Assembly: GCA_011523505.1 (NCBI GenBank)
Contig: WTGP01000012.1
Coordinates: 83,038 to 147,037 of the forward strand
Source: Gammaproteobacteria bacterium
GTDB taxonomy: Bacteria > Pseudomonadota > Gammaproteobacteria > Steroidobacterales > Foliamicaceae
Direction: 5' to 3'
DNA: 64,000 nt
The translations under genes were made by a program, and so were the position numbers. The notes under the pieces are model-generated. The model was not told the origin of the DNA and did not search any database. It saw nothing but the letters and a program-made list of their open reading frames with translations. This document shows, piece by piece, positions 6,333 through 28,441 of the stretch. Every line of letters starts with the position of its first letter. The stretch's first letter is position 1.

Positions 6333-6445
6333 GGCATACCCCTAATTGGACCATGTGGTAGGAGAGAAAATTATACAAAAGCCAAAACTCTTTAGAGAAA
6401 GTCAGTACCTATAATCGCCCATCGCCAGCCTGAAGTGGGGTCGAA

Positions 6446-6928: not shown

Positions 6929-6995
6929 CGACCAAGAGTTGCTGCGATATTCGCGTTTCCGAAGAGATGAAATACCAGCGGTTTCTATTTCCCGG

Positions 6996-11884: not shown

Positions 11885-11896
11885 TTGCCTTGCCGA

Positions 11897-13018
11897 CTAA
11901 TTGTGTCTCTGGTGTCGGCGAAAGAGGGGCCGCATTGCGATTTCTGCCTCGCCGCTAGATTCCGCCCAAAGCAGTGCAAGGGAATTGTTTGGTGTGTTGT
12001 GTTCCAAAACGAGTGGTAATGAGCAGGCTGCATACCCACGTTTCAAATTATCGATTCCGCATTCATTGAGGTGCTTCTCAGACTCTATGTTCGGGTCATA
12101 ATATTTTTCAGCTAGAGCTAGAAACTGAGGGTCTGTTTCACTGGTTATTTTGATTGAACTATCGAACACAGCGCTAAAGGAAAACTCTACGTCCCCAAAC
12201 CAGCAATTGCCTCGTTCACTCGCAGCGTGTTCCTCACGTTCAATCGCGGTGTGTTTGGCATGTTCCGTAGCGAGATAGTGATGAACGTAAAGTGTCCAAT
12301 TCTCCTCCATTGGATAGATATCCAGTTCTTGTCTTGCACGTTCCAGAGAATTCCAAAGCCGTATGAGTTTCCCCTTCCATTCTTCCGCGCGGGGCGGTTT
12401 CCGCAATAGGGAAGTACCGCTCGCAGTAAAGTCGTCGATCACAAAAAGGCAACGGAATCGAGCATCGCAATTTTCTGTGTCTTTGCGTAGATCATCCAGA
12501 AGATCTTGCCACTTATCAGGATCAATCTGAGTAAACCCAACAACTTGCTCGTTGGTCAGAGCGCCTTTAGCCGCATATCGCAGCAGGTCGGTTCTTGCGC
12601 CGTCGCTAAGACCCATGAATAGCACTTGCCGCAAACAGTGGGCGAACCTTTCGGTGCCCCCCGGGTGCGACCATAAGCGAAAACGCTCAATACCTAAATC
12701 ATTTGCTGCCATCTTGGCAACTGTCGGTCTTATTCGTTCGAAGTAGCAAAGATCTACAAGCTTTGATAGTTCCGCGGGTCCCACATATACCAGCCGCTTT
12801 TTTAAGAACTCGTAGGCTATTTGGCGTTCATCCGATGTTTCGAATTGGGTAAGCCAAGTGATAAGAGATTCCAGGAATTGAACCCCGGCGACAAAGTCGC
12901 GATAGCCGTCGTACTTGAATCTCGACATGAGTCGCAACCATTGGTACTCGGTTCGTGCATGATCATCAGACCAGTCCATAACGCTTCCCAGAGTTCGCAA
13001 ACAAAGTGCTTCGTTCAC
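11897..13018 (-). CDS. phosphoribosyltransferase (PRTase)-like protein with N-terminal unknown domain (gene 2 of the operon)
   Basis: 373-aa ORF with a PRPP-loop-like motif (CLFVIDDFTASGTSLL). GTG start at 13018 forms GTGA with the upstream stop. Confidence 0.6.
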   Translation of the reverse strand: MNEALCLRTLGSVMDWSDDHARTEYQWLRLMSRFKYDGYRDFVAGVQFLESLITWLTQFETSDERQIAYEFLKKRLVYVGPAELSKLVDLCYFERIRPTVAKMAANDLGIERFRLWSHPGGTERFAHCLRQVLFMGLSDGARTDLLRYAAKGALTNEQVVGFTQIDPDKWQDLLDDLRKDTENCDARFRCLFVIDDFTASGTSLLRKPPRAEEWKGKLIRLWNSLERARQELDIYPMEENWTLYVHHYLATEHAKHTAIEREEHAASERGNCWFGDVEFSFSAVFDSSIKITSETDPQFLALAEKYYDPNIESEKHLNECGIDNLKRGYAACSLPLVLEHNTPNNSLALLWAESSGEAEIAMRPLFRRHQRHN

Positions 13019-15877: not shown

Positions 15878-16432
15878 CTACTTATCATCCGCTGTTGGCA
15901 ACCATTGAAGCTCGGCCTCGATCCGTCGACGATAGGCCGTATCAATCTGCCGGGGTGCCCGACGAATATATTGTTCTGCGTTGTCTCGTGCGGTCCCCGA
16001 TAGAGATCGAAGGTGCCTTAGTACGTCTCCTACGTCAGGTTGCCCTTTCGTACCGCCCTTGAGTCCTGGCGGCAACCCTGTCCAGATAACCGAGTCGATA
16101 TTTCTTGCACGCGCCCACTTGCTCAGTAGAGGTATCTCGGGTGGAGACTCCTTTCCCCTCGACCAACGGCCTATGTGTTTCTTCTTTGTGCCTTCCCGCC
16201 GTTTCAGTTGCTTTATCGCGACTTCGAGACAATCGCTGTCCATGAGGGTCCATAACGATCGCACGGGGCGGGCGTCAGGCGAGATTACCAATGTGATGCG
16301 ATCATCCTTGGATTGTCGCGCGAATTCGACTGGAATCATCGGACCGTCATCGGACCAGGACCGCTTTATTGGTAAGTCTCGAGGATCCCAGATTAGGGAA
16401 CCCCAGCCCAGACACGCGATGTTGTGGTTCAT
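15878..16432 (-). CDS. gamma-glutamylcyclotransferase (ChaC/AIG2)-like protein
   Basis: N-terminal IACLGWGSLIWDP resembles the ChaC/GGCT YGSLxW motif. ATG at 16432 overlaps the upstream TGA by 1 nt; the alternative GTG is at 16438. Confidence 0.5.
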   Translation of the reverse strand: MNHNIACLGWGSLIWDPRDLPIKRSWSDDGPMIPVEFARQSKDDRITLVISPDARPVRSLWTLMDSDCLEVAIKQLKRREGTKKKHIGRWSRGKESPPEIPLLSKWARARNIDSVIWTGLPPGLKGGTKGQPDVGDVLRHLRSLSGTARDNAEQYIRRAPRQIDTAYRRRIEAELQWLPTADDK

Positions 16433-17445
16433 CACCACGATGCCCTCTTCGCAGACCGGGCGTACTCGACATGTCTGGCGTGAGTTTCCGCGGTCACGGG
16501 TAGGGCGGCTGTTGTTATCTTTGCCCGGATCGCCTCCATCCTCTCTCGCATCAGGCTTCGACTCGACGATGCGCGAACGGAGAAGGCGATGTACTGGTGC
16601 AACTCCGCAAGGCTCATGCAGACGACGCCTCGCATTCGCCAGCCACGGAACCGCTTTGCCATATCCTCGTGCTCTTCAAACCGCACGAACTTCTCCTCCG
16701 TTTTCAGCTCGGCGTCGCCCACGAACACTGCAACGGGCCGGATTTCCCAAGGATCAACGACGCCGAGTTTGACCAGGGCCTTCGCGTGTCCTTCGTTCTG
16801 CAGCAGTGGATTGTAGAAAGCGAATCGCTTCGACTTGATTCCCATCATGCGGGACCACCGGCCCGCCTTGAACGATTGCGTCCACCGTTGCTGCCCGGGG
16901 CTTGCGAATATCCACCCGCCCATGTCCTTGGTCTCGATCACGAATACGCCGGCGGGCGAAATGAGGATGTGATCGATCTGTGCCGTCCCTCCCCCAGAGC
17001 GAAGCAGCACATTATTGAGCAGCGGCCAGTCCCGATAACGCCTCGTCAATACCGATTGGACCCGTCGCTCGCCGGCGTTTGCCTTCGGCGCGGGTTTCTG
17101 CAATACCGAAGTGGGTTTCGGACCGTGCCGATGCAGCGCCTCTGTCGGTGACGCGGCCCGGGTATCAGGCGTCGAAATTGGGGTTCTGCGTTTGCGGCGA
17201 AACAGAAGCAACAGTGCCACCACGACGAGTGCTCCTCCCAGCCACCCGCTCCAAGCGACAACTGCTTCGTCCCATCCAGGCGTAACCACTGCGTCATGGA
17301 CGACGATTCTCTGACCCACCTGCACATAGTCCGCTTCTTCGATCCGATTCCACTCCTGCAATTGCTCGACGGTGACGCCGTACCGCGCGGCAATTTCCGA
17401 GAGCGTCTCTCCCGGTTCCACGTGCACTTCTGTCGTTTCGCTCAT
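16432..17445 (-). CDS. LysM - TM - NERD domain protein
   Basis: LysM region (VEPGETLSEIAARYGVTVEQLQEWNRI...VGQRIVV), a TM helix (WLGGALVVVALLLLF followed by RRKRR), and a NERD core (AQIDHILISPAGVFVIETKDMGGWIF). Confidence 0.75.
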   Translation of the reverse strand: MSETTEVHVEPGETLSEIAARYGVTVEQLQEWNRIEEADYVQVGQRIVVHDAVVTPGWDEAVVAWSGWLGGALVVVALLLLFRRKRRTPISTPDTRAASPTEALHRHGPKPTSVLQKPAPKANAGERRVQSVLTRRYRDWPLLNNVLLRSGGGTAQIDHILISPAGVFVIETKDMGGWIFASPGQQRWTQSFKAGRWSRMMGIKSKRFAFYNPLLQNEGHAKALVKLGVVDPWEIRPVAVFVGDAELKTEEKFVRFEEHEDMAKRFRGWRMRGVVCMSLAELHQYIAFSVRASSSRSLMRERMEAIRAKITTAALPVTAETHARHVEYARSAKRASW

Positions 17446-17505
17446 TGCCCGTAAGCGATCGCTTCCCTCGGTAACGGCGACACGGATGCGCGATGCGTAT
17501 GAGAT

Positions 17506-18663
17506 TCAGCCAGAATCGCTCCCATCACCTACCGAAATGCCGCCCTGGGACCTCAATTGCTGATTTAGACGCGCAAGCGGTTCCGAGAACGCGTCCTCCA
17601 GTTTGACGAAGTACTCGCACAGCCACTCGATCATCTTGGGCCAGTTCTCGTCATTAAACCCATCAAACGGGTGCGCATAGCAGATTCGGCTCGCCTTCTT
17701 GTCGTCAAGCCTATGCCACTGGAATTCAGCACCAAAACGCTCTTCGATATCCTGCTTTTGCTGTTCGAGCTGATCGAAGATCCATTTGTTCTCATTTTGA
17801 GAACGCGTGAGGGAGAGTTCCACGCGCGCCTCGTTGTTGGTAAAAATCAGGTTGTAGGCGCAGCCCGATACACCAGTCGCGCTGGCCAGCCAGTGGAATT
17901 GGGACGGACTGATGTTCTCGTATCGCGAGATTCCGCGCCTTCGGAATTCCTCTTTCGTCCTCATCCAAAATGCCCGCCGCATCTCGTAACGGCGTTGTTG
18001 GGTGCCCTGCACCGACTTTTCCTCGGATTCCTTGGCCGCCATCCCGATCATGTAATCTTCCGCTTCGGGCATCGGGATGATCTGTTGCAGATCGATCAGA
18101 ACATCGTCGCCGAAACTATAGGGCACGACCCGGAAGCATTGCGCTCGAACTCCGTGTCCGATTAACCACAGTATCGTTGCCGTTACTTCCTTGCGGAAAT
18201 TCGCCGCGACCAGTATCAAACGCTGGTCATTACCCGCGTTCAGCACCATGTCGTCGAGATCTTCGACTTCTAGGAATTCGCACAGGTTCGTAACGGCGCT
18301 CTCACCGGTAGTCCACCGATCAAGGTACTTCTGATAGATTTCGACGATCTCCGACTTCTTAAGGCTGGAGCAATAGGCCACGTATTTAAGTGCTTGCCAC
18401 ACTACATCGCGGCCAGAATCGTCACGCTTGTTTTCGATGACCACCAGCCGACGTTCCTTGTCGAGCGCCAGCAGATCGAGGCGCTCGTTGGTGTCCGCGA
18501 ACCCGTCGAATTCCTTCTGGATGACCAGAAGTTCCTCGCCGAGCGCCTCCGGTGTGCGCGCCAGCCACTCCTGAAGGTGGCGCCGCTCGTGTAGATTCAG
18601 ATCGCTAAAGCGCTGTTTCTCAAGCGGGACGAGGCGATTTTCCGACAGGTTCACCTTGAACAT
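17506..18663 (-). CDS. PD-(D/E)xK nuclease-like N-domain with DUF4268-like C-domain
   Basis: 385-aa ORF. RLDLLALDKERRLVVIENKRDD gives a D...E-x-K motif. The C-terminal half resembles DUF4268 from memory. Confidence 0.6.
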   Translation of the reverse strand: MFKVNLSENRLVPLEKQRFSDLNLHERRHLQEWLARTPEALGEELLVIQKEFDGFADTNERLDLLALDKERRLVVIENKRDDSGRDVVWQALKYVAYCSSLKKSEIVEIYQKYLDRWTTGESAVTNLCEFLEVEDLDDMVLNAGNDQRLILVAANFRKEVTATILWLIGHGVRAQCFRVVPYSFGDDVLIDLQQIIPMPEAEDYMIGMAAKESEEKSVQGTQQRRYEMRRAFWMRTKEEFRRRGISRYENISPSQFHWLASATGVSGCAYNLIFTNNEARVELSLTRSQNENKWIFDQLEQQKQDIEERFGAEFQWHRLDDKKASRICYAHPFDGFNDENWPKMIEWLCEYFVKLEDAFSEPLARLNQQLRSQGGISVGDGSDSG

Positions 18664-18982: not shown

Positions 18983-21814
18983 ATGACCCCGAACGAGTTC
19001 ATTGCCAAGTGGCAAGCCTCCGAGTTGAAGGAGCGTTCGGCGGCCCAGGAGCACTTCATTGATCTTTGCCGATTGCTCGGAGAGCCCACACCCGCAGACG
19101 ACGACCCGACCGGCGATCGCTACTGCTTTGAACGGGGAGCACGTAAGGACACCGGCGGCGACGGCTGGGCGGATGTCTGGAAGCGGGGGCACTTCGCTTG
19201 GGAGTACAAGGGCAAGCACGCCAATCTCGATAAGGCATTCCAGCAGTTGCGGCGGTACGCCTTGGCGCTGGAGAACCCGCCGCTACTGATCGTTTCGGAC
19301 ATGGCCCGGTTCCGGATCACCACGAATTGGACCAACAGCATTAGCGTGGTGCGCGAATTCTCACTGGCCGAACTCGAGGACGGCGCGAACCGCAACCTGC
19401 TCAAATGGGCAATGTCGGATCCGGAGCGCTTGCGGCCGGGAGAAACGCGGCAGATGGTGACGGAGCGGGCGGCCGCAACGTTTTCCGAACTGGCGCAGTC
19501 CCTGCGGGACCGGGGACATGAACCACAGGCCGTAGCGCACTTCGTGAACCGCCTGGTGTTCTGCATGTTCGCTGAAGATATCGGTCTGCTGCCGGATGAC
19601 ATGTTCACTCGGATGCTCGAACAGGCACGTACGCAGCCAGATGAATTCGTGGTGCTTGCCCAGGATCTGTTCGGAGCCATGTCTACGGGCGGTCGTATCG
19701 GATTCGAACCGGTCGCATGGTTCAATGGCGGACTGTTTGACGATGACAGCGCGCTGCCGCTGGGCGCGGCGGAGATTCAGACGGCGCTCAAGGCTGCAGC
19801 GCTCGACTGGTCTGAAATTGATCCTTCCATCCTGGGCACGCTATTCGAACGCGGACTCGATCCGGACAAGCGGTCGCAACTGGGTGCGCACTACACCGAC
19901 CGCGACAAGATCATGCGAATCGTGGATCCTGTGATCGTCCGTCCCCTACTCGCCGAATGGGAGCACACCAAGGCCGACATTGAGGCAGCGATGGTGCGGG
20001 CGGCAAAGGCTGGATCGCCATCGGCGCGGACGAAGGTGCACAACAAAGCGAAGGGGATACTCCGTGCGTTTCTTGAGCGGCTTCGGACATTCACTGTGCT
20101 GGATCCTGCTTGCGGATCGGGGAACTTCCTCTACCTGGCGTTGCAGGCGCTCAAGGATATCGAACACCGGGTTCATATAGAGGCCGAGGCGATGGGTCTT
20201 GAGCGCGGCTTCCCTGCTGTCGGTCCGATCAACGTAAAGGGCATCGAGATCAATCCCTACGCCGCCGAACTCGCACGGGTGTCCGTATGGATTGGCGAGA
20301 TCCAATGGATGCGGCGCAATGGCTTCAGCGAGGAGCGCGATCCGATACTTAAGCCGCTGGACAATATTGAATGCCGGGATGCAATCCTCGCGCCGGATGG
20401 GAGTGAGTCGGAGTGGCCACACGCTGATGTCGTAATAGGGAATCCACCGTTTCTGGGTAACAGGAAGGCGCGTAAAGAATTGGGCAACAGCTATGTCGAC
20501 ATGTTATCGGCTGCCTACCGTGGCCTGATCAAAGGAAAACCCGACTTGGTTTGCTACTGGTTTGCAAAAGCAGGACGCTTAATTGAGAACGGAGCAATTT
20601 TGCGCACGGGTCTAGTCGCTACAAACTCAATTCGTGGTGGTACTAACCGATTAGTTCTGAAGCGAATTCTCGAACATTCCGTAATCTACGATGCGTGGCC
20701 CGATGAACCTTGGGTAGTGGAAGGTGCCGCGGTCCGAGTGTCCTTAGTATGTTTTACCCTAAAGAACGCAGCCGTTCCGATTCGCTACGAAGACGCAGAA
20801 ACATCGCAGATCAATGCGAATCTTTCAGCCGGGCCACTTGATTTAACCCTTGCTGAACGAATAAGAGAAAACCGAGGCGTGGCATTCCAGGGTGTTGTAA
20901 AGCGAGGGAAGTTTGATGTCTCTGGCGATATGGCGAGAGATTGGCTTTGTTTGCCAGCCAACCCGAACGGTCGCACTAATGCCGAAGTCTTACGTCCCCG
21001 GACTAACGCCATGGACATTACACGCCGACCATCAGGCAAGTGGATCGTAGATTTTGGTGAGAATATGTGCGAAGAAGAGGCGGCCCTATTCGAGGCGCCT
21101 TTTGAGTACGTGGAACAACATGTCAAAACTGAACGCCAACAGAACAGTGAACCGGAAAGTCGGGAGTTCTGGTTCAGACATTGGAATACGCGCCCCGCAA
21201 TGCGGAAGGCACTCAAAGGGAAAGCGCGCTTTATCGCCACTCCGTGTGTCGCCAAGCACCGGTTGTTTGTCTGGCTGAAAGCGGGGGTTTGCCCGGATCA
21301 TGCGCTAATCGTCTTCGCTCGAGACGACGACACAATCTTCGGGATACTGCACAGCCGCTTTCACGAGACCTGGTCACTACGGCAAGGCACCGACTTGGTA
21401 GACAGACCGCGTTACACACCCACTACTACATTCGGGACGTTCCCCTTCCCGAAAGGTCTCTCTCCGGACATTCCAGCCGAGAACTTTGCGAACGATACAC
21501 GAGCGATCGTCATAGCCGAGGCGGCCGGGCGCTTGGTTCAATTGCGCGACCGCTGGCTCAATCCGCCTGAATGGGTGGAATGGGTGAATGAGCCAGTGCC
21601 AGGCTTTCCCAAGCGGCCCGTTGCGCGGGACGCAACGGCCGCCAAGGAACTCAAGGCCCGTACGCTCACCAAACTCTACAACGCTCGACCGCAATGGCTG
21701 GCCGATGCCCATGCCAGGCTCGATACCGCTGTGGCGAACGCGTATGGGTGGGATGCTGATATTTCGGAGGAAGACGCGTTGGCGGAGCTACTAGCGCTCA
21801 ATTTGTCCCAATAG
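18983..21814 (+). CDS. MmeI-family type IIL/IIG restriction-modification enzyme (fused nuclease + N6-adenine methyltransferase + specificity domain)
   Basis: 943-aa ORF with an MmeI-like N-terminus (FIAKWQASELKERSAAQEHFIDLCRLLG). It carries a nuclease D...EYK motif (GWADVWKRGHFAWEYKGK), a SAM motif (LDPACGSGNFL) and catalytic VIGNPPF. Confidence 0.85.
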   Translation: MTPNEFIAKWQASELKERSAAQEHFIDLCRLLGEPTPADDDPTGDRYCFERGARKDTGGDGWADVWKRGHFAWEYKGKHANLDKAFQQLRRYALALENPPLLIVSDMARFRITTNWTNSISVVREFSLAELEDGANRNLLKWAMSDPERLRPGETRQMVTERAAATFSELAQSLRDRGHEPQAVAHFVNRLVFCMFAEDIGLLPDDMFTRMLEQARTQPDEFVVLAQDLFGAMSTGGRIGFEPVAWFNGGLFDDDSALPLGAAEIQTALKAAALDWSEIDPSILGTLFERGLDPDKRSQLGAHYTDRDKIMRIVDPVIVRPLLAEWEHTKADIEAAMVRAAKAGSPSARTKVHNKAKGILRAFLERLRTFTVLDPACGSGNFLYLALQALKDIEHRVHIEAEAMGLERGFPAVGPINVKGIEINPYAAELARVSVWIGEIQWMRRNGFSEERDPILKPLDNIECRDAILAPDGSESEWPHADVVIGNPPFLGNRKARKELGNSYVDMLSAAYRGLIKGKPDLVCYWFAKAGRLIENGAILRTGLVATNSIRGGTNRLVLKRILEHSVIYDAWPDEPWVVEGAAVRVSLVCFTLKNAAVPIRYEDAETSQINANLSAGPLDLTLAERIRENRGVAFQGVVKRGKFDVSGDMARDWLCLPANPNGRTNAEVLRPRTNAMDITRRPSGKWIVDFGENMCEEEAALFEAPFEYVEQHVKTERQQNSEPESREFWFRHWNTRPAMRKALKGKARFIATPCVAKHRLFVWLKAGVCPDHALIVFARDDDTIFGILHSRFHETWSLRQGTDLVDRPRYTPTTTFGTFPFPKGLSPDIPAENFANDTRAIVIAEAAGRLVQLRDRWLNPPEWVEWVNEPVPGFPKRPVARDATAAKELKARTLTKLYNARPQWLADAHARLDTAVANAYGWDADISEEDALAELLALNLSQ

Positions 21815-22020
21815 CCAGTACCTCTGATCATCTTGGGAAGCACCTGGGTCCTAGAGACAATAGAGGTGCCGGCTTGGCCCGCAGGGTCGCGTAATCTTCT
21901 AATTTGTGAATGAAGCGAAAGAGGACGGCGGGTCCTCAGGCCCTGGAGATATTCTTGTTCCGCGTGTTTCGTACCTCGGACTCCTTGGGCAGCGTTCTTG
22001 GCGGTGCGGCCTAGGATTAT

Positions 22021-23016
22021 CTACTTGGGGAAAAGAGGGGTTGAATAGCCAATGAACGAGAACGGATCTCGTTCAATTGTGCAGTCGGCTTCATTCATTT
22101 GGCATTCTGCCAAGCTAATACCCTCTGCCCGAAGGCAACTCAAGTAGTACACGTTCGCGGCGCGGTGTTTGTTTCTTCGCTGGCGGGGATCAAGGCCTCG
22201 GATGAAGCCTCCGGCCTGCACCGGCGTGAGTCCTGTGGCGCTTACCGAGGCGGAGATATAGCAAAACTCCGCTTTGGCCTGATCCATGCCGTCGCATCCG
22301 TCTGGACAAACTAATCGAAATCCGTCCCTGTATTGAATGTCAATACGGGCGGCTTCCAGATCCCTTTCAACCATCGCAATGAGTTGGGTTGCAAGAGGAG
22401 CCAACTCCTCCAACTCTGTGTTATCTGCAAGTTTCTGAATCTTGGCAAGCAGAGGCTCTACGCGCCGAATGTAGTCGCTGCTGTTTTCTTGTTCGAATCG
22501 TTCAGCCTGTCCGGTTAGGTTACGGAGCATGAGGAATTCGAGCAGAGACGATATTCGCGGCTCCCATTCGTCGAGAAAATCAATTGTAAATTCCTCCGGA
22601 ATCCTTTCGCCTAAGCCATAAACAGCGACTCGAGCGGCTGTGCCTATTGCAGCAATTTCGCCCCAGATCAGGAGATCAGCCCGGTGCGTTTCGAGGAGGG
22701 ACCAAGCTGCTTCCAGTTCAATTGCGGGTCTTTCCTCGGTACTTTCGATGATGTCCTCCTCGATCAAGGGGGAATCGATTTTCAGGCAAGCCCATCCCTG
22801 CGTTCCAAGGCCATTGAAAAGATCGCCGGTATATCGTGAATCTGAATCACCGCGGAGTTGAGGGATCAGTATGGTGAACTTATCGACTGATGCCTTGCCG
22901 GAGTCCGTGTTTATAACAATAGGAGTCCTTAGGTCACGGCAGGTTTCAATGCCGAAAAACGCCAGCAACCCCAAGGCCAGTAAGCCAAGGCCAATCCACG
23001 TTGGTGCTTTTCTCAA
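22021..23016 (-). CDS. membrane-anchored hypothetical protein
   Basis: 331-aa ORF with an N-terminal TM (WIGLGLLALGLLAFFGI) and a cysteine-rich C-terminus. No family recognised. Confidence 0.5.
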   Translation of the reverse strand: MRKAPTWIGLGLLALGLLAFFGIETCRDLRTPIVINTDSGKASVDKFTILIPQLRGDSDSRYTGDLFNGLGTQGWACLKIDSPLIEEDIIESTEERPAIELEAAWSLLETHRADLLIWGEIAAIGTAARVAVYGLGERIPEEFTIDFLDEWEPRISSLLEFLMLRNLTGQAERFEQENSSDYIRRVEPLLAKIQKLADNTELEELAPLATQLIAMVERDLEAARIDIQYRDGFRLVCPDGCDGMDQAKAEFCYISASVSATGLTPVQAGGFIRGLDPRQRRNKHRAANVYYLSCLRAEGISLAECQMNEADCTIERDPFSFIGYSTPLFPK

Positions 23017-23076
23017 TCGTTTCTCCCTAACGGCACATTTTGTGGCCGTGATAATTCCGTTGTGCTTCCTAGTGTG

Positions 23077-23523
23077 CTACCAACATCGCGCTTTGCAATG
23101 CGCTGTGCACTGGCGAGCCAACCCAATACCACGCACGATCTGAATCACGTGTACGAGCCAGTTATTCAGCACACGATTCCAAGGATGCTCGGACATCCAG
23201 CCTTTCGATGGTAATGATAATTTCCGTAATTTTGAACGAGTGAACTCGTTGATCTTCCTGAATGCCGCACTGTCCCTGATCCGATCCTCGCGCGGCTGAA
23301 GCAGCGTGTGTTCGATAGCGTATTCTCGCTCACCGACCTTGAGGCGCAGGTTCACGGGCGGACCGTTGCCGTCCCTCTCCGGATGCCGAATGCCTGAGCG
23401 CGTGCCGTTCGTGCAGATTTCGATGTGCCTGACTACAGTGTCGCAGGCCTTGCCTTCGCTATTTTTTTTGATGAGCATGGGCGCGACAGTGTAGGATGAA
23501 ATCGAGAGGCGGGCCATGGGCAA
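23077..23523 (-). CDS. hypothetical protein
   Basis: 148-aa ORF lying 109 nt downstream of the DUF6527 gene on the same strand. EREYAIEHT could be a degenerate nuclease-like motif. This is speculative. Confidence 0.4.
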   Translation of the reverse strand: MPMARLSISSYTVAPMLIKKNSEGKACDTVVRHIEICTNGTRSGIRHPERDGNGPPVNLRLKVGEREYAIEHTLLQPREDRIRDSAAFRKINEFTRSKLRKLSLPSKGWMSEHPWNRVLNNWLVHVIQIVRGIGLARQCTAHCKARCW

Positions 23524-23632
23524 TGGTTGGCCGGTTGCCTCGTCAGGATTCCAAATCAGGTTCGGGAACTGGCCACGCTCTGCTTTTTCCGCGTAGCATT
23601 TGCGGGCCGCCGTTGGGCGCCGCCCAGTGGCG

Positions 23633-24058
23633 CTATGAGTTCCGCCTGCGTGTGAGGCCTTTCAAGAAACCTCTGAACCTTGCCCTTGCACCGGTCTGCG
23701 TCGCTTTACGTTCCTTCAGCGCTTGAGCAGCTTCCCTTTCCTGGGCCTGCCTTGTTGCCCAGCGTTGCATTGGCGAGCACCACAAAATCTGGTTGTTGCG
23801 AATCCAAAAGTGACTCCGGCACTTGAGGTTGGAGTTGCCGATCGATGGATCGAAAGTGACACTCTTGCCGTCATACATCATCCGGAACCTGATAGGGTCC
23901 AGCACGAACTCTGAGAGCTGGCCGCACCCGCAGGGGCATCTCAGCACGACCGTCCTGTGCTTCATGCTGATGTACACGACCCCCGGGACCAGGTCCTTTC
24001 CGTCCGACGGGATGTACTCGACGAATTCTGGGATTACCGATCTCAGGCGCCGCCTCAT
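23633..24058 (-). CDS. DUF6527-family protein (ubiquitin-like cassette component)
   Basis: These are the last 141 codons of track ORF 23633-24658, starting MRRRLRSVIPEF. ATG at 24058-24056 forms ATGA with the E1 stop at 24057-24055. The CPCGCG and CRSHFWIRNNQILW motifs match DUF6527 as I remember it. Confidence 0.65.
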   Translation of the reverse strand: MRRRLRSVIPEFVEYIPSDGKDLVPGVVYISMKHRTVVLRCPCGCGQLSEFVLDPIRFRMMYDGKSVTFDPSIGNSNLKCRSHFWIRNNQILWCSPMQRWATRQAQEREAAQALKERKATQTGARARFRGFLKGLTRRRNS

Positions 24059-25179
24059 GACTCCGTCTTCTTCAGCAGGTCGTTGCCTTCGATTTGGTAA
24101 CGGACGAGCCAGCCCTTCGTCTCTTCTTCGTACTGCCCTATGTGTCGCCGCCACATGCCTACTGCCAGCGCTGCGTTCAATGCGCCCACATCCGCCAGCT
24201 GCAATGCACGATATTCCTCCTCGCCGACTCCTTCGATCGTCGGAATGCCTATCCGCCATCGGCCCGGGTCTTCGCCGGAGAAGAAGACCTGACAGCTGCC
24301 CCGAACGCGTCCGTTCCGGCGTTGAATTCCCATACCGACGTCCACGAAGGGGATTTCGGCTTCTTCCAGCTTCTGGCACAAGGCGGAGCGTACGTCGGTC
24401 TTGTCCACCGCGATGAAGACGAAATTCAGCCCATCGAACGAGTCGACGGGGTCGTCCGAACGCCAGTACTGCCCGCAGACTGAAAGGCCGCGTCGCATTT
24501 GATCGTATTGGGTCCCGTAGAACTCGGCCTTGTTGTTGTCGATTGCTTCCTGGCCTGCCCAGCCCGGGGCCCGAAGAAGATTGCGTCCTTCTATGTCGTC
24601 TCCATCCCAGATCCGTATTTCCCGGACATCCGTCTTGCTCATCATGTCCAGGATCCATAGCCCTACACCGCCGAGACCCACGATCCCGATTCGTTGGCCT
24701 CTTGCGCGAGCCCGCCAGTCCTGCATGGCTTGGTCGTCCTCGCCTTCGATTTCGAACCGGAAGATGGGCTCGACCTGCTTGCGTTGTTCTTCACCGAGCG
24801 CGCCGGCGACCCGCGACACATATACGGTCAAAGCGTGCCACGCGTTGTCGTAATCTCCGTCATCACGCATGATTGAAATGACGCACTGGTCGGTCCCGTC
24901 GGTCCAGAGCATATTGCCGACCGGGTTCCCGTCTGCCTGGTATGCGTGTCCCTTGTCGACCCCGGTTAAGAGGGCAGCGTGAGCTGCTCGGTTCGCGTTC
25001 TCCAGTGCTCGCAGGGCTAGTCCGTCACCTTGTATTCCGACCGAGATTTGGCACGTTCCTACAGCGCCGCTCCTTTTTCTGTATGGCACGCCTACTATTG
25101 AGATGAGGTTGTCTTCCACTTCAACCGTCCATCCGCGCCGCCCGGCGTCCTGCCGCAACAGCTCCTCATATTCGGTCAT
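24055..25179 (-). CDS. ThiF/E1-like adenylyltransferase with ~150-aa N-terminal domain of unknown type
   Basis: 374-aa ORF. IGIVGLGGVGLWILDMMSKTDVREIRIWDGDDIEGRNLLR is the Rossmann/ATP-binding signature of the ThiF/MoeB/E1 family. Confidence 0.8.
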   Translation of the reverse strand: MTEYEELLRQDAGRRGWTVEVEDNLISIVGVPYRKRSGAVGTCQISVGIQGDGLALRALENANRAAHAALLTGVDKGHAYQADGNPVGNMLWTDGTDQCVISIMRDDGDYDNAWHALTVYVSRVAGALGEEQRKQVEPIFRFEIEGEDDQAMQDWRARARGQRIGIVGLGGVGLWILDMMSKTDVREIRIWDGDDIEGRNLLRAPGWAGQEAIDNNKAEFYGTQYDQMRRGLSVCGQYWRSDDPVDSFDGLNFVFIAVDKTDVRSALCQKLEEAEIPFVDVGMGIQRRNGRVRGSCQVFFSGEDPGRWRIGIPTIEGVGEEEYRALQLADVGALNAALAVGMWRRHIGQYEEETKGWLVRYQIEGNDLLKKTES

Positions 25180-25230
25180 TGGATTTGCGCCTGTCCCGGT
25201 CCGGGTCAGGCCGGGCCATACGGGTTGTGC

Positions 25231-25602
25231 TTAGGACAGGTGCGCCGGATCCACCTGAACGCTAAAGCCGTCTTCAACTTTCACGCTCTCTCCTTGCAGC
25301 AGGATGCCTTTTTCGCCATTTGCCCTTGTGTAGTGAATGGCTGGATTGCCTTGGATCGTCCGATCGGGACTAAGTTTGTCCCACTCTTCCTTGACTTCCT
25401 CGTACTTGATTTCGTTTCGGGGCCACTTCACGCTCCGCCCCGCGATCACGATCTCGTATCCCGCCTTGCGATCTTCCATTCTTATGGCCTCCACTCTGGT
25501 ATTGCCGGGGTTTTTCGGCGGGTACCTTATCACGGCGGGCCACTTTTCGGACGACTCAGAGACAGTACTATGGACCGCGTGGTATGCGGTTTGCGTGCCC
25601 AT
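25231..25602 (-). CDS. multiubiquitin-like beta-grasp protein
   Basis: YEIVIAGRSVKWPRNEIKYEEVKEEWDKL...AIHYTRANGEKGILLQGESVKVEDGFSVQV fits the prokaryotic multiubiquitin pattern from memory. An alternative start at M42 (25479) would give 82 aa. There is no C-terminal Gly-Gly. Confidence 0.6.
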   Translation of the reverse strand: MGTQTAYHAVHSTVSESSEKWPAVIRYPPKNPGNTRVEAIRMEDRKAGYEIVIAGRSVKWPRNEIKYEEVKEEWDKLSPDRTIQGNPAIHYTRANGEKGILLQGESVKVEDGFSVQVDPAHLS

Positions 25603-25661
25603 GAGACGCTAAACTCACTGCACAGTCTTCGATACGTTTTGATTCGAGCAAATGAACTGCG

Positions 25662-26387
25662 ATGCCCGGAAAAACCGACATTGAATGGACCGATGCGACC
25701 TGGAACCCTGTAACGGGTTGCACGAAGATCACCCGGGGCTGCGATAATTGCTACGCGGAGCGCTTCGCCGAGCGCTGGCGCGGGATCAAGGGACATCCTT
25801 ACGAACAGGGCTTTGATCTGCGCTTGTGGCCATCGCGGTTGGATCAGCCCCTGAAGTGGAAAAAGCCCCGGATGATCTTCGTCAATTCGATGAGCGATTT
25901 GTTTCACAAGAAGGTCGACCGACACTTCATTGACCAGGTCTTCGAGCGGATGGAGGAGGCCAATCAACATATCTACCAGGTCCTAACCAAGCGGAGCTCG
26001 CTCATGCGGAATTACTTGCGCAGGCGGTATGCGGAGCGTGCGGCTCCGGCGCACATTTGGTGCGGCGTGTCGGTGGAGGACTGTACTGGGCTGGCACGAA
26101 TCCGCCATCTGCAGGCGGCACCTGCAACCATTCGGTTTCTGTCGATCGAGCCATTGCTGGGGCCGCTGGAGGACCTCGACCTGGAAGGCATCTCCTGGGT
26201 CATCGTCGGCGGCGAAAGCGGTCCTAAAGCCCGCAAGATGCGTGGCGAGTGGGTGGCGAGAATCCGCGATCAATGCGAGCAAGCTGGGGTCGCATTCTTC
26301 TTCAAACAGTGGGGTGGAAGAACGCCGAAGTCGAACGGGCGCGAACTAGACGGGCTTGAATATAATTCGCTGCCGGCATTGCCGTAA
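25662..26387 (+). CDS. DUF5131 (phage Gp37/Gp68) three-Cys-motif protein
   Basis: 241-aa ORF. N-terminal IEWTDATWNPVTGCTKITRGCDNCYAE carries a C-x6-C-x2-C motif, characteristic of the family. Confidence 0.8.
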   Translation: MPGKTDIEWTDATWNPVTGCTKITRGCDNCYAERFAERWRGIKGHPYEQGFDLRLWPSRLDQPLKWKKPRMIFVNSMSDLFHKKVDRHFIDQVFERMEEANQHIYQVLTKRSSLMRNYLRRRYAERAAPAHIWCGVSVEDCTGLARIRHLQAAPATIRFLSIEPLLGPLEDLDLEGISWVIVGGESGPKARKMRGEWVARIRDQCEQAGVAFFFKQWGGRTPKSNGRELDGLEYNSLPALP

Positions 26388-27647
26388 TTGGAGGAGGCGT
26401 TGTCGTTTGAATGGGCGCCGGGCGAGCAGCCGCCGATACTTGAGCCACACAGCGAAGCCAAGTTGCGGGTATTGCGGGCCTATCTGCACGCCTACTGCGA
26501 TACGTTAAACCTTCGGTTCCAGCGCGACGAATTCCGCTTAGATCTCGTTGACGGGTTCTGCGGGGGCGGAACCTACCGCGAAATAGATGGATCTATTGTT
26601 TCCGGTAGCCCCCTGATCATGCTCGAGGAAATGCAGGCCGCCGACCAGCGTTTGAACCAGAACCGAAGGAAGGCCTTGAGCGTGGACTATCAATGCTACT
26701 TCGTGGACAAAGAGCGGCCGCACATCGAACACTTGCGTGATGTGCTCAGTGAGCGAGGATACGGGTCTGAGGATGACCGCATCCTGGTGAGGGAAGGCCG
26801 TTTTGAAGCGGAATGCGGCGCCATCATCGAATCCATCCTCCGCCGTCAGCCCCGCGCAGGGCGAGCAATCTTTCTGCTGGACCAGACCGGGTACTCGCAG
26901 GTGGACCTGGACTTGATCCGCGGCATCTTTCGCCAGCTGCCTGCCGCCGAGGTGATCTTGACCTACGCTGCCGATGCGCTGATCAATTTTCTGGCGGGCC
27001 GTCCGGAGGTCCTGGTCCGGCTTGAAGGATTGGGACTGGACCGCGCGCAGGCCCTTGATCTCATTGAGCATAAACAGAGGGGCCAGCATGCGCTCATCCA
27101 GCGTACGTTGAAAGACCTAATACTTAGCGCAACCGGAGCAACCTACTACACCCCTTTTTTCATTCGCCCTGTAGTCTCCCGGCGTGCGCTGTGGTTTGTC
27201 CACCTTTCGAAGCATCCAACGGCCCGTGATGTCATGTTGCAGCTTCATTGGGAACTGAGCAATACGTTTGAGCACTACGGCAACGGAGGCCTCGGCATGC
27301 TGGGCTGGGATGCGATGAAAGATCTAGACGCGCTCGACCTGTTCAATTTCACCGCGGAAGACGAGGAGGCCGTACGCCTGGACTTGATGGAATCCCTTCC
27401 ACGTGAATTGGATGCCGCGGTGTCGAAGGAGCCGGTGCCGGTCGGTGCGGTATACCGCCAGGTAGCCAATCAAACTGCCGCGACCCGCTCGCAATTGGAC
27501 AAGGTCATCCTACAGCTATTCCGTGAGCGGGAATACGACATTCGTGACAAGAACAACCGGCGTCGAACGCGGCGTATCCTGCGCTTGCAGCCTACCGATC
27601 ACATCCTCCTGCCGGACAATCTGACGCTGCCGTTTCGAGCAAAATAG
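26388..27647 (+). CDS. tcmP: three-Cys-motif partner protein TcmP-like
   Basis: 419-aa ORF. TTG at 26388 directly abuts TAA at 26385-26387 of the DUF5131 gene. HSEAKLRVLRAYLHAY and the pairing with DUF5131 match TIGR04474 as I remember it. Confidence 0.65.
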   Translation: MEEALSFEWAPGEQPPILEPHSEAKLRVLRAYLHAYCDTLNLRFQRDEFRLDLVDGFCGGGTYREIDGSIVSGSPLIMLEEMQAADQRLNQNRRKALSVDYQCYFVDKERPHIEHLRDVLSERGYGSEDDRILVREGRFEAECGAIIESILRRQPRAGRAIFLLDQTGYSQVDLDLIRGIFRQLPAAEVILTYAADALINFLAGRPEVLVRLEGLGLDRAQALDLIEHKQRGQHALIQRTLKDLILSATGATYYTPFFIRPVVSRRALWFVHLSKHPTARDVMLQLHWELSNTFEHYGNGGLGMLGWDAMKDLDALDLFNFTAEDEEAVRLDLMESLPRELDAAVSKEPVPVGAVYRQVANQTAATRSQLDKVILQLFREREYDIRDKNNRRRTRRILRLQPTDHILLPDNLTLPFRAK

Positions 27648-27974
27648 CGCTTACCCAAATCGCGGTCATCAGGTTCCGCTCCGCCAGCGCATCGGCACGT
27701 TTTTTCCGCTGTCATATTGAGTTCTGCTAGGCTGGTTGTCGGGGTGCTACATTCGCTCAGCCAAGCCTGCACAAGTACTCTAGGCGGAAGCCCGCGAATC
27801 GCTGACCGGAGCCCTGCCGAATTTACATTGTCGACCCTTTACAAACTCTAACCGCAGTGCATTGGGCCTACAACAATAGCGTCCCCCAAACCTTCACAAA
27901 GGCCATCGTAAGGGCCACCACATCTCAATGAAACACATGAAATATCTATATATCAATAACTAAAGAGATTGTGA

Positions 27975-28048
27975 TGGGCCGTGAGGGAATCGAACCCGCA
28001 ACCAATGGATTAAGAGTCCACTGCTCTACCTAGTTGAGCTAACGGCCC
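27975..28048 (-). tRNA. tRNA-Lys (anticodon CTT), no encoded CCA, C-U mismatch in T-stem
   Basis: I folded the reverse complement GGGCCGTTAGCTCAACTAGGTAGAGCAGTGGACTCTTAATCCATTGGTTGCGGGTTCGATTCCCTCACGGCCCA by hand. The anticodon loop is CTCTTAA. The T-stem GCGGG/CCCTC has one mismatch. The 3' flank is TCA, not CCA. Confidence 0.8.
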
Positions 28049-28119
28049 AGTGTGGGTGTGGCGTTGAACGGAACGCCAGCCGGTGGGGGTGCAATATTGC
28101 CACAGCCGGCGGTGAAGGG

Positions 28120-28196
28120 TGGGGTGGACGATGGGACTCGAACCCACGACGACCAGATCCACAATCTGGGGCTCTACCAACTGAGCTACGCCCACC
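28120..28196 (-). tRNA. tRNA-His (anticodon GTG) with G-1 and encoded CCA
   Basis: Manual cloverleaf of GGTGGGCGTAGCTCAGTTGGTAGAGCCCCAGATTGTGGATCTGGTCGTCGTGGGTTCGAGTCCCATCGTCCACCCCA. Confidence 0.9.
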
Positions 28197-28245
28197 ACGG
28201 TTGATGCTGCTGCCCGGCTCGCGCCTGGGGCGCCGTTTCCGCCGA

Positions 28246-28322
28246 TGGCGCGCCTGGCAGGACTCGAACCTGCAACCACCGGCTTAGAAGGCCGATGCTC
28301 TATCCGGTTGAGCTACAGGCGC
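28246..28322 (-). tRNA. tRNA-Arg (anticodon TCT) with encoded CCA
   Basis: Manual cloverleaf of GCGCCTGTAGCTCAACCGGATAGAGCATCGGCCTTCTAAGCCGGTGGTTGCAGGTTCGAGTCCTGCCAGGCGCGCCA. Confidence 0.9.
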
Positions 28323-28364
28323 ATCGACTGGTTAGTCCGGGAAAGCGGCGGCCCTTTGGCGCAG

Positions 28365-28441
28365 TGGTCGGGGTAAACGGATTTGAACCGTTGACCTTCT
28401 GCTCCCAAAGCAGACGCGCTACCAGACTGCGCCATACCCCG
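28365..28441 (-). tRNA. tRNA-Pro (anticodon TGG) with encoded CCA
   Basis: Manual cloverleaf of CGGGGTATGGCGCAGTCTGGTAGCGCGTCTGCTTTGGGAGCAGAAGGTCAACGGTTCAAATCCGTTTACCCCGACCA. Confidence 0.9.

What the first reader, a model, noticed from the sequence alone, without database searches (positions are those of the whole stretch)
23633..25602. Minimal ubiquitin-like conjugation cassette: multiubiquitin-like beta-grasp protein, E1(ThiF) with extra N-domain, and DUF6527, with no JAB/DUB gene
**Seen in the sequence.**
- Three co-oriented genes are present.
- E1 and DUF6527 are coupled by an ATGA overlap at 24055-24058.
- The real DUF6527 gene is hidden in the ORF track inside a 341-aa Arg-rich ORF.

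**Established knowledge.**
- Comparative genomics from the Iyer/Burroughs/Aravind line of work links prokaryotic multiubiquitin, E1, E2 and JAB genes in conflict-associated operons.
- Bil-type ubiquitin-like systems are antiphage.
- From memory, which I cannot verify here, recent structural work on bacterial ubiquitination-like (Bub) operons proposed DUF6527 proteins as non-canonical E2s.

**What is unusual here.**
- There is no recognisable peptidase or JAB gene.
- The beta-grasp protein ends in ...DPAHLS, not Gly or Gly-Gly.
- The E1 has a ~150-aa N-terminal domain of unknown type.
Basis: partly seen in the sequence, partly recalled or inferred. Interest (0 to 1): 0.75.

Follow-up and report, generated by a model that had tools for sequence, protein, structure and literature searches.

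The report
Type II Bub ubiquitin-like conjugation operon
These three genes are a divergent but complete copy of an already described bacterial "Bub" ubiquitin-like protein-tagging operon: a small ubiquitin-like protein, a fused E2-E1 enzyme and a DUF6527/BubE protease, so the features flagged as odd are normal for this family.

Summary
The three co-oriented minus-strand genes, the ATGA overlap and the hidden DUF6527 ORF are all real. The cassette matches the published Type II Bub (formerly 6E.2/DUF6527) operon of Ye, Gong, Chambers and Corbett: BubA (Ubl), BubBD (E2-E1 fusion) and BubE (DUF6527).

All three "unusual" points dissolve:
- **N-terminal domain of the E1.** It is the E2 domain. It aligns with DUF6791 domains and keeps the catalytic Ser (S102). 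The adenylation Arg (R203) and crossover-loop Tyr (Y323) are also kept.
- **DUF6527.** It is not an E2. It is the operon's peptidase, a Ser-His protease with a C4 zinc site; S72, H83 and C41/C43/C45/C80 are all present. "No peptidase" is therefore wrong, and Type II Bub normally lacks a JAB gene.
- **C-terminal Ser.** The upstream Ubl ends in Ser in 65 of the 66 related loci where I could identify it. The biochemically tested E. coli BubA (PDB 9cd2, ...TDKS) does too.

What is mildly new is that this is a small, divergent sub-lineage:
- Its E2 domain is not detected by Pfam DUF6791.
- The Ubl tail is HLS.
- The Lys next to the catalytic Ser is Met here.
- The 82-aa Ubl is much more conserved than its enzymes.

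The true bubA start is 25479, not 25602. The biological role is still unknown for every Bub operon. Interest is low to moderate.

The parts
25231..25479 (-). bubA: an 82-aa ubiquitin-like protein with a single beta-grasp domain (Ubl_1 type). The C-terminal Ser82 codon is 25234-25236 and the stop codon is 25231-25233. The mechanical ORF runs on to 25602.
   Evidence: - Pfam Multi_ubiq scores 24.0 bits against a cut-off of 24.5.
- hhalign of this clade against canonical Type II BubA gives 97.5% probability, E 5.9e-12, over 74 columns that reach the penultimate residue of both proteins.
- A family profile hits E. coli ZDHYS365 BubA (PDB 9cd2) residues 143-222 at E 2.6e-17.
- The start at 25479 is supported by orthologues, by a GGAGG 8 nt upstream and by gene callings of the same island.
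24790..25179 (-). bubBD, E2-like domain (residues 1 to about 130). Key codons: putative catalytic Ser102 (24874-24876), invariant His67 (24979-24981), Pro32-Tyr33, Tyr110 and Tyr120. Met104 (24868-24870) sits where most relatives have Lys.
   Evidence: - In alignment A1 with DUF6791+ThiF proteins, S102, H67, P32, Y33, Y110 and Y120 are invariant.
- hhalign of the N-domain against DUF6791 domains gives 89.5% probability, E 2e-6, over 125 columns, with IS(102)IK aligned to FS(105)SKP.
- S102 is kept in all 11 non-DUF6791 E2-E1 fusions aligned, whereas C99 is lost in two of them.
- The AF2 model has pLDDT about 83 and the topology helix, beta-meander, helix.
- Pfam DUF6791 itself gives no hit at E < 0.1.
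- Foldseek of the isolated domain gives nothing significant.
24055..24732 (-). bubBD, E1 adenylation domain (residues about 150-374). Key features: the GLGGVG nucleotide loop (G168-G173), Arg203 (24571-24573), Asp280 (24340-24342) and the crossover-loop Tyr323 (24211-24213). There is no Cys domain.
   Evidence: - Pfam ThiF scores 50.3 bits.
- R203, D280, Y323 and the glycine loop (G168, G170, G171, G173) are invariant in 75 sequences.
- The eight best Foldseek matches of the full model are Citrobacter BubCD structures (9ea8, 9ea4, 9eav, 9ea5, 9eae), E about 5e-11 to 2e-10, ahead of UBA5, ThiF and MoeB.
- The loop at residues 316-318 has low pLDDT, as expected for a mobile crossover loop.
23633..24058 (-). 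bubE: a 141-aa DUF6527 Ser-His peptidase. The C4 zinc site is C41/C43/C45/C80, and the dyad is Ser72 (23843-23845) with His83 (23810-23812). It carries a 47-aa basic C-terminal tail.
   Evidence: - Pfam DUF6527 scores 73.7 bits against a cut-off of 23.6. The same gene carries the label 'PF20137:BubE' in the precomputed annotation.
- In a 79-sequence alignment, S72 and H83 are 100% conserved and the four Cys are 97-99% conserved.
- The spacing matches the published Citrobacter C57/C59/C61/C99, S92 and H102.
- The tail has 13 K+R against 3 D+E.
24055..24058 (-). ATGA start/stop overlap between bubBD and bubE, suggesting translational coupling.
   Evidence: Read directly from the sequence. A 4-nt overlap is also present in L007 and L009-L012; in L008 bubBD is split but its last ORF still ends 4 nt into bubE.
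25480..25661 (.). Divergent intergenic region between bubA and the DUF5131 gene. It presumably holds the bub promoter. No regulator gene lies here.
   Evidence: - No sigma-70 consensus site was found in 21800-25800.
- No CapW/BrxR, CapH+CapP or CapK+CapS-like gene is adjacent.

Best explanation
[quoted passage not shown] It sits in a low-GC defence island next to a tRNA-Lys/His/Arg/Pro cluster.

**Inferred mechanism.** Each step was shown biochemically for the E. coli ZDHYS365 and/or Citrobacter homologues; here it is inferred from conserved residues.
1. The 82-aa single-beta-grasp BubA needs no processing, because it is translated with its reactive C-terminal Ser82 exposed.
2. The adenylation domain of BubBD, presumably a homodimer, binds BubA and adenylates its C-terminal carboxylate using ATP (G168-G173 loop, R203, D280).
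3. Tyr323 on the mobile crossover loop attacks the adenylate, giving a BubA~Tyr oxyester.
4. BubA passes to Ser102 of the N-terminal E2 domain, probably on the other protomer, giving a BubA~Ser oxyester.
5. A target lysine resolves this into an isopeptide bond. No cysteine thioester is involved.
6. BubE, a zinc-stabilised Ser72-His83 peptidase, cleaves conjugates and so limits or recycles the modification.

**Role.** The targets and the biological role are unknown for the whole family. An antiphage or stress function is suggested only by genomic context.
For: **Architecture**
- Gene order and content match the published definition of Type II Bub: Ubl, E2-E1 fusion and DUF6527, with no JAB.
- Pfam hits support all three genes.
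- Only these three genes are shared by the close relatives L007-L012.

**BubBD**
- It aligns over residues 16-374 with DUF6791+ThiF proteins.
- The Ser, Arg and Tyr fall at 105, 217 and 338 in canonical homologues, against the published E. coli S106, R219 and Y342. These correspond to S102, R203 and Y323 here.
- S102 is kept across all divergent E2-E1 fusions aligned, whereas the neighbouring C99 is not.
- The full model is closest to Citrobacter BubCD crystal structures.

**BubE**
- The catalytic dyad and the zinc cysteines are intact.

**BubA**
- It is homologous to canonical Type II BubA.
- It shares the family-wide C-terminal Ser, as does the experimentally conjugated E. coli BubA, PDB 9cd2.

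**Context**
- The island is at 55% GC against 67% for the chromosome and lies next to tRNA genes.
- It is flanked by an MmeI-like Type IIG restriction-modification gene and a DUF5131+TcmP pair.
- The Citrobacter and E. coli operons likewise sit in tRNA-inserted mobile elements.
Against: - The E2 domain is not recognised by Pfam DUF6791. The link to it rests on a profile-profile match of only 89.5% probability and on whole-protein alignments.
- An N-domain-only HMM search of 1.84 billion proteins finds just 24 clusters, and none of the ten I scanned carries DUF6791.
- Foldseek of the isolated N-domain gives no significant match to BubB or to any E2.
- The Lys two residues after the catalytic Ser (canonical FSSKP; K in 41 of 52 clade members) is Met in this protein. 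The paper names Lys+His as residues accompanying the E2 Ser, but I could not confirm which lysine it means.
- BubA scores just below the Pfam Multi_ubiq cut-off.
- No activity was tested here, and no Bub operon has yet been shown to protect against phage.
Confidence: 0.8

Rival explanations
1. The cassette is a Bub-like conjugation system whose E2 chemistry has been remodelled in this sub-lineage. The clade-invariant Cys99, three residues before Ser102, would carry a thioester, or the active site would use the clade-specific Trp114-His115 in place of the canonical Lys.
For: - C43, C99, W114 and H115 are invariant in the 15-sequence clade alignment and absent from canonical DUF6791 domains.
- The canonical Lys position is Met in the window and is variable within the clade.
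- The domain falls outside Pfam DUF6791.
Against: - In the wider set of non-DUF6791 E2-E1 fusions, S102 is kept in all 11, but C99 is Gly in P0152 and Ser in P0158.
- S102 aligns with the Ser that was validated by mutation in E. coli BubBD.
- C99 and S102 lie on the same predicted beta-strand three residues apart. By simple beta-strand geometry, which is my inference and was not measured on the model, they should face opposite sides.
Confidence: 0.07
2. This copy is a decaying or inactive remnant: the operon is intact in form, but the E2 is crippled by the Lys104-to-Met change.
For: - M104 replaces the Lys found in 41 of 52 clade members and in canonical FSSKP motifs.
- One relative (L008) has a split bubBD, so decay does occur in this clade.
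- No regulator gene is adjacent.
Against: - All three ORFs are intact, and every other catalytic residue is conserved.
- Met at this position recurs in six other cluster representatives; Ile, Leu and Asp also occur there. The position is therefore tolerant rather than essential in this clade.
- Identical copies are found on at least 10 metagenome contigs.
- BubA is under strong constraint, at 85-90% identity in the five closest relatives and 68% in L012.
Confidence: 0.08
3. The system is not a protein-conjugation system. It would be a ThiF/MoeB/MccB/PaaA-like adenylation system that activates the small protein for sulfur transfer or for peptide or cofactor modification.
For: - By sequence, the best PDB hits of the E1 part are PaaA and TcdA.
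- ThiF, MoeB and MccB are good structural matches.
- The C-terminus is not Gly-Gly.
Against: - The top structural matches are BubCD, not ThiF or MoeB.
- There is no rhodanese domain and no persulfide Cys.
- ThiS and MoaD end in Gly-Gly (established knowledge), whereas this protein shares the Ser end of the conjugation-competent E. coli BubA.
- A fused E2-like domain and a linked Ubl-specific peptidase (85 of 86 loci) have no role in sulfur transfer.
- No biosynthetic genes are nearby.
Confidence: 0.04

Closest known systems
Type II Bub operon (6E.2), e.g. E. coli ZDHYS365 BubA/BubBD/BubE (Ye et al., bioRxiv 10.1101/2024.11.21.623953; BubA structure PDB 9cd2)
   Same: - It has the same three genes in the same order, with the E2 fused to the N-terminus of the E1 and no JAB gene.
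- The E2 Ser, the adenylation Arg and the crossover Tyr are conserved.
- BubE keeps its C4 zinc site and Ser-His dyad.
- BubA ends in Ser.
- It lies in a mobile island at tRNA genes.
   Different: - BubBD is only about 30% identical, and its E2 domain is not detected by Pfam DUF6791.
- The BubA tail is ...DPAHLS rather than ...TDKS.
- BubA has one beta-grasp domain (82 aa), against three in E. coli.
- The Lys after the catalytic Ser is Met here.
- No CapW, CapH/CapP or CapK/CapS regulator is adjacent.
Type I Bub operon (6E.1), Citrobacter sp. RHBSTW-00271 BubAB/BubCD/BubE (PDB 9ea4, 9ea5, 9ea8, 9eae, 9eav)
   Same: - It has the same E1 adenylation fold, which gives the best Foldseek matches.
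- It shows the same oxyester logic (Tyr on the E1, Ser on the E2).
- It has the same BubE peptidase.
   Different: - Type I fuses the Ubl to the E2 and a JAB peptidase to the E1.
- Type I needs JAB cleavage to expose a C-terminal Gly.
- Here the Ubl is separate, ends in Ser, and there is no JAB.
Bil (bacterial ISG15-like) antiphage operons
   Same: It is a bacterial Ubl, E1 and E2 system with a deconjugating peptidase, found in defence islands.
   Different: - Bil uses cysteine thioesters.
- Its E1 has IAD-AAD-CYS domains.
- Its E2 is a separate protein.
- Its peptidase is a JAB.
- Its Ubl ends in Gly.
- Antiphage activity has been demonstrated.
Type II CBASS Cap2/Cap3
   Same: It has a fused E2-E1 enzyme and a partner peptidase that reverses conjugation.
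   Different: - Cap2 conjugates the CD-NTase C-terminus, not a Ubl.
- It uses Cys residues.
- The peptidase Cap3 is a JAB.
- PADLOC E1-E2 models hit only the nucleotide-binding stretch of this protein, at 13-21 bits.
ThiF/ThiS and MoeB/MoaD sulfur-carrier systems
   Same: A beta-grasp protein is activated by a ThiF-fold adenylating enzyme.
   Different: - The carrier ends in Gly-Gly.
- There is no E2 domain and no DUF6527 peptidase.
- The function is sulfur transfer rather than protein conjugation.

Membership tests
Type II Bub operon | [quoted passage not shown] | tested here: met
   - Three adjacent minus-strand genes are present.
- The same trio is the only gene set shared with L007-L012.
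- A DUF6527 gene follows the E1 in 85 of 86 loci.
Type II Bub operon | BubE: a DUF6527/PF20137 domain with a C4 zinc site and an invariant Ser-His dyad | tested here: met
   - The Pfam score is 73.7 bits against a cut-off of 23.6.
- C41/C43/C45/C80, S72 and H83 are conserved at 97-100% in 79 sequences.
Type II Bub operon | E1: a ThiF adenylation domain with a catalytic Arg and an invariant crossover-loop Tyr, and no catalytic Cys domain | tested here: met
   - ThiF scores 50.3 bits.
- R203, D280 and Y323 are invariant in 75 sequences.
- The best structural matches are BubCD.
Type II Bub operon | E2 domain at the N-terminus of the E1 (Pfam DUF6791 in canonical members) with a catalytic Ser | tested here: inconclusive
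   **For**
- hhalign against DUF6791 gives 89.5% probability, E 2e-6, with S102 aligned to the canonical Ser.
- Whole-protein alignments start at residue 16.
- NCBIfam PRK06153 matches residues 16-371, but below its cut-off.
- S102 is kept in all divergent fusions aligned.

**Against**
- There is no Pfam DUF6791 hit.
- An HMM of the N-domain alone does not reach DUF6791 proteins.
- Foldseek finds no significant E2 or BubB match.
Type II Bub operon | Lys and His accompanying the E2 catalytic Ser (stated in the paper's discussion) | tested here: inconclusive
   - His67 is invariant.
- The Lys of the S-x-K motif is Met104 in this protein, and Lys in 41 of 52 clade members.
- I could not confirm from the text which Lys the paper means.
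Type II Bub operon | BubA: a beta-grasp Ubl whose free C-terminus is the conjugation site | tested here: met
   - Multi_ubiq scores 24.0 bits, just under its cut-off.
- hhalign against canonical BubA gives 97.5% probability, E 5.9e-12.
- The C-terminal Ser is shared with 65 of 66 loci and with PDB 9cd2.
Type II Bub operon | No JAB/JAMM peptidase (typical rather than absolute) | tested here: met
   No JAB hit was found in any ORF of 90 aa or more in window 1-28000.
Type II Bub operon | ATP-dependent Ubl conjugation through oxyester intermediates, with deconjugation by BubE | not testable with these tools
   This requires biochemistry. It has been shown only for the E. coli and Citrobacter homologues.
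Type I Bub operon | A Ubl-E2 fusion (BubAB) and a JAB-E1 fusion (BubCD), with the Ubl ending in Gly after JAB cleavage | tested here: not met
   - The Ubl is a separate 82-aa protein that ends in Ser.
- The E1's N-domain is E2-like rather than JAB.
- There is no JAB hit.
Bil operon | A separate E2 with a catalytic Cys, an E1 with IAD-AAD-CYS domains, and a JAB peptidase | tested here: not met
   - The E1 has a single adenylation domain of about 225 aa with no Cys domain.
- There is no JAB gene and no separate E2 gene.
- No Bil model in PADLOC is hit.

The most novel reading that the evidence does not exclude
The window's cassette represents a distinct third Bub lineage, a small family of about two dozen 50%-identity clusters whose E2 domain lies outside DUF6791. 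In it the E2 active site has been rebuilt: an S-I-K/M motif, an invariant Cys99, and Trp114-His115. The very strongly conserved 82-aa Ubl, with its ...HLS tail, would be handled by chemistry or target recognition that differs from the characterised Type I and Type II systems.
Probability: 0.12. Interest if true: 0.55.

Novelty: new member of a known kind. Interest (0 to 1): 0.3.

Why it matters
Bub operons are the only known ubiquitin-like pathways that work without cysteine, through Tyr and Ser oxyesters. Their targets and biological role are still unknown: no phage protection had been shown as of the 2026 literature.

This locus adds little in principle, because it fits the published Type II architecture. 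It is useful in three small ways:
- Current Pfam DUF6791 and PADLOC models miss a divergent branch of the family, so operon censuses based on them will undercount.
- It documents that a C-terminal Ser, not Gly, is the conserved reactive end of Type II BubA. I did not find this stated in the main text of the preprint.
- It offers a minimal system for biochemistry: an 82-aa single-domain Ubl, no regulator gene, and a natural Lys-to-Met variant beside the E2 Ser.

Tried and rejected
- **Foldseek of the isolated N-domain model against the PDB.** The best E-value was 0.45. A few E2s (2fo3, Rad6, Cdc34) are scattered among the weak hits, and BubB is absent. This neither proves nor disproves an E2 fold.
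- **Sequence or profile search of the PDB with the N-domain and with whole BubBD.** Neither gave a Bub hit. Only generic ThiF-fold proteins came up.
- **BLASTP of window BubA against the third domain of E. coli BubA.** It gave no alignment. Homology appears only at the profile level.
- **PADLOC 2023.** It has no Bub models. Only weak Cap2-like E1-E2 hits fall on the nucleotide-binding loop.
- **The two co-oriented genes downstream of bubE as possible operon members or effectors.** These are orf148 (23077-23523) and orf331 (22021-23016). I rejected them because they are absent from all related loci and match no family. orf331 has no homologue at all.
- **The adjacent DUF5131+TcmP pair as part of the system.** I rejected this because it is divergent in orientation, is a known separate two-gene module, and co-occurs with Bub in only one other locus.
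- **Promoter and terminator scan.** It found no promoter-like site, and terminator-like hits were at chance level.
- **Supplementary tables of the Bub papers.** They are not held, so I could not check whether this sub-lineage is among the 544 catalogued operons.
- **Host organism.** I did not identify it. The genome scan returned only relatives of 72% identity or less, in Bryobacterales, Terriglobia, Latescibacterota and Dehalococcoidia MAGs.
Full report
**1. What is in the sequence**

Three adjacent genes lie on the minus strand between 23633 and 25602.
- The first ORF, 25231-25602 (123 aa), gives a borderline Pfam Multiubiquitin hit: 24.0 bits against a cut-off of 24.5, E 4.5e-5.
- The second, 24055-25179 (374 aa), has a ThiF domain at residues 157-303 (50.3 bits). 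Nothing is assigned to its first 150 or so residues.
- The third, translated from the ATG at 24058, is a 141-aa DUF6527 protein (73.7 bits against a cut-off of 23.6).

Other details of the finding also hold.
- The bubBD stop and the bubE start overlap as ATGA at 24058-24055.
- In the mechanical ORF list the DUF6527 gene is the tail of a 341-aa ORF, 23633-24658.

- The six close orthologues all begin at that Met, several with a stop codon only 1 to 7 codons upstream of it.
- A GGAGG lies 8 nt upstream.
- Five of six independent gene callings of this same island use that start.

**2. What it is**

A full-text search for DUF6527 led to two preprints from the Corbett laboratory. They rename the "6E/DUF6527" operons as Bub (bacterial ubiquitination-like).
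- Type II Bub is defined as BubA (Ubl), BubBD (an E2-E1 fusion) and BubE (DUF6527), typically without a JAB peptidase.
- For E. coli ZDHYS365 the authors showed ATP-dependent BubA conjugation that is abolished by R219A (adenylation), Y342F (crossover-loop Tyr) and S106A (E2 Ser).
- For Citrobacter they showed that BubE is a weak Ser-His peptidase with a C4 zinc site that removes BubA conjugates in cells.

The window's cassette has exactly this architecture.

**3. Tests of the defining features**

*BubBD*
- A homology search found about 95 clusters at 57-100% identity that carry only a ThiF annotation. Below them, at about 30% identity over 94-96% of the query, are about 390-aa proteins annotated DUF6791+ThiF.
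- In a joint alignment, P32, Y33, H67, S102, Y110 and Y120 in the N-domain are invariant. So are the glycine loop (G168, G170, G171, G173), R203, D280 and Y323 in the E1 part.
- In the canonical proteins the Ser, Arg and Tyr sit at 105, 217 and 338. That is within 1 to 4 residues of the published E. coli S106, R219 and Y342.
- A profile-profile comparison of the N-domain alone against DUF6791 domains gives 89.5% probability (E 2e-6, 125 columns) and pairs I-S102-I-K with F-S105-S-K.
- An AlphaFold2 model (pLDDT 83.7) has the eight Citrobacter BubCD chains as its best PDB matches (E 5e-11 to 2e-10), ahead of UBA5, ThiF and MoeB. The loop just before Y323 has low confidence, as expected for a mobile crossover loop.

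*BubE*
- In 79 sequences, S72 and H83 are 100% conserved and C41/C43/C45/C80 are 97-99% conserved.
- The spacing matches the published Citrobacter residues.

*BubA*
- The clade profile matches canonical Type II BubA at 97.5% probability (E 5.9e-12), with the alignment reaching the penultimate residue of both proteins.

**4. The three "unusual" points**

- **Peptidase.** There is indeed no JAB gene; none was found in any ORF of 90 aa or more in the 28-kb island. That is the norm for Type II, and DUF6527 is itself the peptidase rather than an E2.
- **C-terminus.** I located the Ubl ORF upstream of the E1 in 66 of the 81 distinct loci examined. It ends in Ser in 65 of them and in Ala in one. TDKS is the commonest tail, and this clade uses [AS]HLS. 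A C-terminal Ser is thus the family's reactive end. The phrase "C-terminal serine" does not occur in the main text of the preprint.
- **N-terminal domain.** The extra domain of the E1 is the E2 domain.

**5. Where it differs from the characterised members**

- The E2 domain is not detected by Pfam DUF6791, either here or in the precomputed annotation of any close relative.
- An HMM built from the N-domain alone finds only 24 clusters (at 50% identity) in 1.84 billion proteins. The ten I scanned have ThiF or nothing, never DUF6791.
- Foldseek of the isolated domain gives nothing significant.
- So the E2 assignment rests on remote homology and a conserved motif, not on a fold match.
- The Lys two residues after the Ser is Met in this protein. 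It is Lys in 41 of 52 clade members, and Met in the window and six others.
- The clade has its own invariant residues: C43, C99, W114 and H115. I asked whether C99 rather than S102 might be the catalytic residue. In an alignment that adds six more divergent non-DUF6791 fusions, S102 is kept in all 11. C99 is Gly in one and Ser in another. This favours the Ser.
- BubA is a minimal single-domain Ubl. It is far better conserved (85-90% identity in L007-L011, 68% in L012) than BubBD (60-72%) or BubE (57-71%). Its 90%-identity cluster has 38 members, while the BubBD and BubE clusters have one each.

**6. Context**

- The cassette (58% GC) lies in a 55%-GC region that abuts a 67%-GC chromosome at a tRNA-Lys/His/Arg/Pro cluster, 27973-28441.
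- Its neighbours are an MmeI-like Type IIG restriction-modification gene (18983-21814), a DUF5131+TcmP pair (25662-27647), a LysM-NERD protein, a DUF4268/NucS-like protein, and a PfkB / STAND ATPase / PRTase-CE / HAD block.
- This resembles the tRNA-inserted mobile elements that carry the Citrobacter and E. coli operons.
- None of the regulators reported next to many Bub operons is adjacent: not CapW/BrxR, CapH+CapP, or CapK+CapS.
- The two co-oriented downstream genes are not conserved with the cassette and are orphans.
- The identical island recurs on at least 10 metagenome contigs.
- The closest genome relatives, at 72% identity or less, are MAGs of Bryobacterales, Terriglobia, Latescibacterota and Dehalococcoidia.

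**7. Verdict**

- The finding is real but already explained. It is a Type II Bub operon of a divergent sub-lineage.
- The mechanism I commit to, at about 0.8 confidence for the system and lower for individual steps in this clade, has four parts:
  1. BubA Ser82 is adenylated.
  2. The Ubl moves by oxyester relay through Y323 and then S102.
  3. It is transferred to a target lysine.
  4. BubE (S72/H83) reverses the modification.
- All chemistry is inferred from homologues. The biological role remains unknown for the whole family.
- I rate the novelty as a new member of a known kind, and the interest as low to moderate.

Noticed in passing
window 22021-23016 (-) and 23077-23523 (-): Two co-oriented ORFs lie directly downstream of bubE, with gaps of 109 and 60 nt. 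They are 331 aa (hydrophobic N-terminus) and 148 aa. Neither has a Pfam, PADLOC, NCBIfam or PHROG hit. The 331-aa protein has no homologue other than itself among 5.8 billion clusters. Both are absent next to related Bub operons.
   Followed up: partly
window 25231-25479 (-); loci L007-L012: The 82-aa BubA is much more conserved than its enzymes. It is 85-90% identical in L007-L011 (68% in L012), against 60-72% for BubBD and 57-71% for BubE. Its 90%-identity cluster has 38 members, while the enzyme clusters have one each. This pattern of constraint resembles that of ubiquitin.
   Followed up: partly
loci L013-L086, upstream of the E1 match; PDB 9cd2: Type II BubA proteins end in Ser in 65 of the 66 loci where I identified the ORF. 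The commonest tail is TDKS. The crystallised E. coli ZDHYS365 BubA also ends in Ser. The phrase 'C-terminal serine' does not occur in the main text of the Bub preprint.
   Followed up: yes
window 7831-14922 (-): A block of four to five co-oriented genes: a PfkB-family kinase, an unassigned 364-aa ORF, an ORC/CDC6-like STAND ATPase (638 aa), a PRTase-CE protein (373 aa) and a 635-aa protein with a HAD-hydrolase C-terminus. It looks like a nucleotide-centred conflict system.
   Followed up: no
window 25662-27647 (+); L038 2710-4086: A DUF5131 (radical-SAM-like 'mobile pair') gene and a three-Cys-motif partner (TcmP) gene match the PADLOC candidates PDC-M30 and PDC-M41. They sit divergently next to bubA. 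A similar pair lies upstream of a canonical Bub operon in one Dehalococcoidia MAG.
   Followed up: partly
window 16432-18663 (-) and 18983-21814 (+): Three further defence-type genes: a LysM-NERD nuclease-like protein, a DUF4268/NucS-like protein, and a 943-aa MmeI-like Type IIG restriction-modification enzyme. The whole region 1-28000 has low GC and ends at tRNA-Lys (27973-28049). No integrase was seen in the window.
   Followed up: partly
L008 5995-7128: In the Terriglobia MAG the bubBD orthologue is split into two ORFs (5995-6609 and 6742-7128). This is either a frameshifted pseudogene or an assembly error.
   Followed up: no
window 3182-3532 (-) and 5722-6093 (-): There is an Xre-HTH antitoxin with an MbcA/ParS-type toxin-binding C-terminus, and a DUF5615 protein. 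Both suggest toxin-antitoxin modules in the same island.
   Followed up: no
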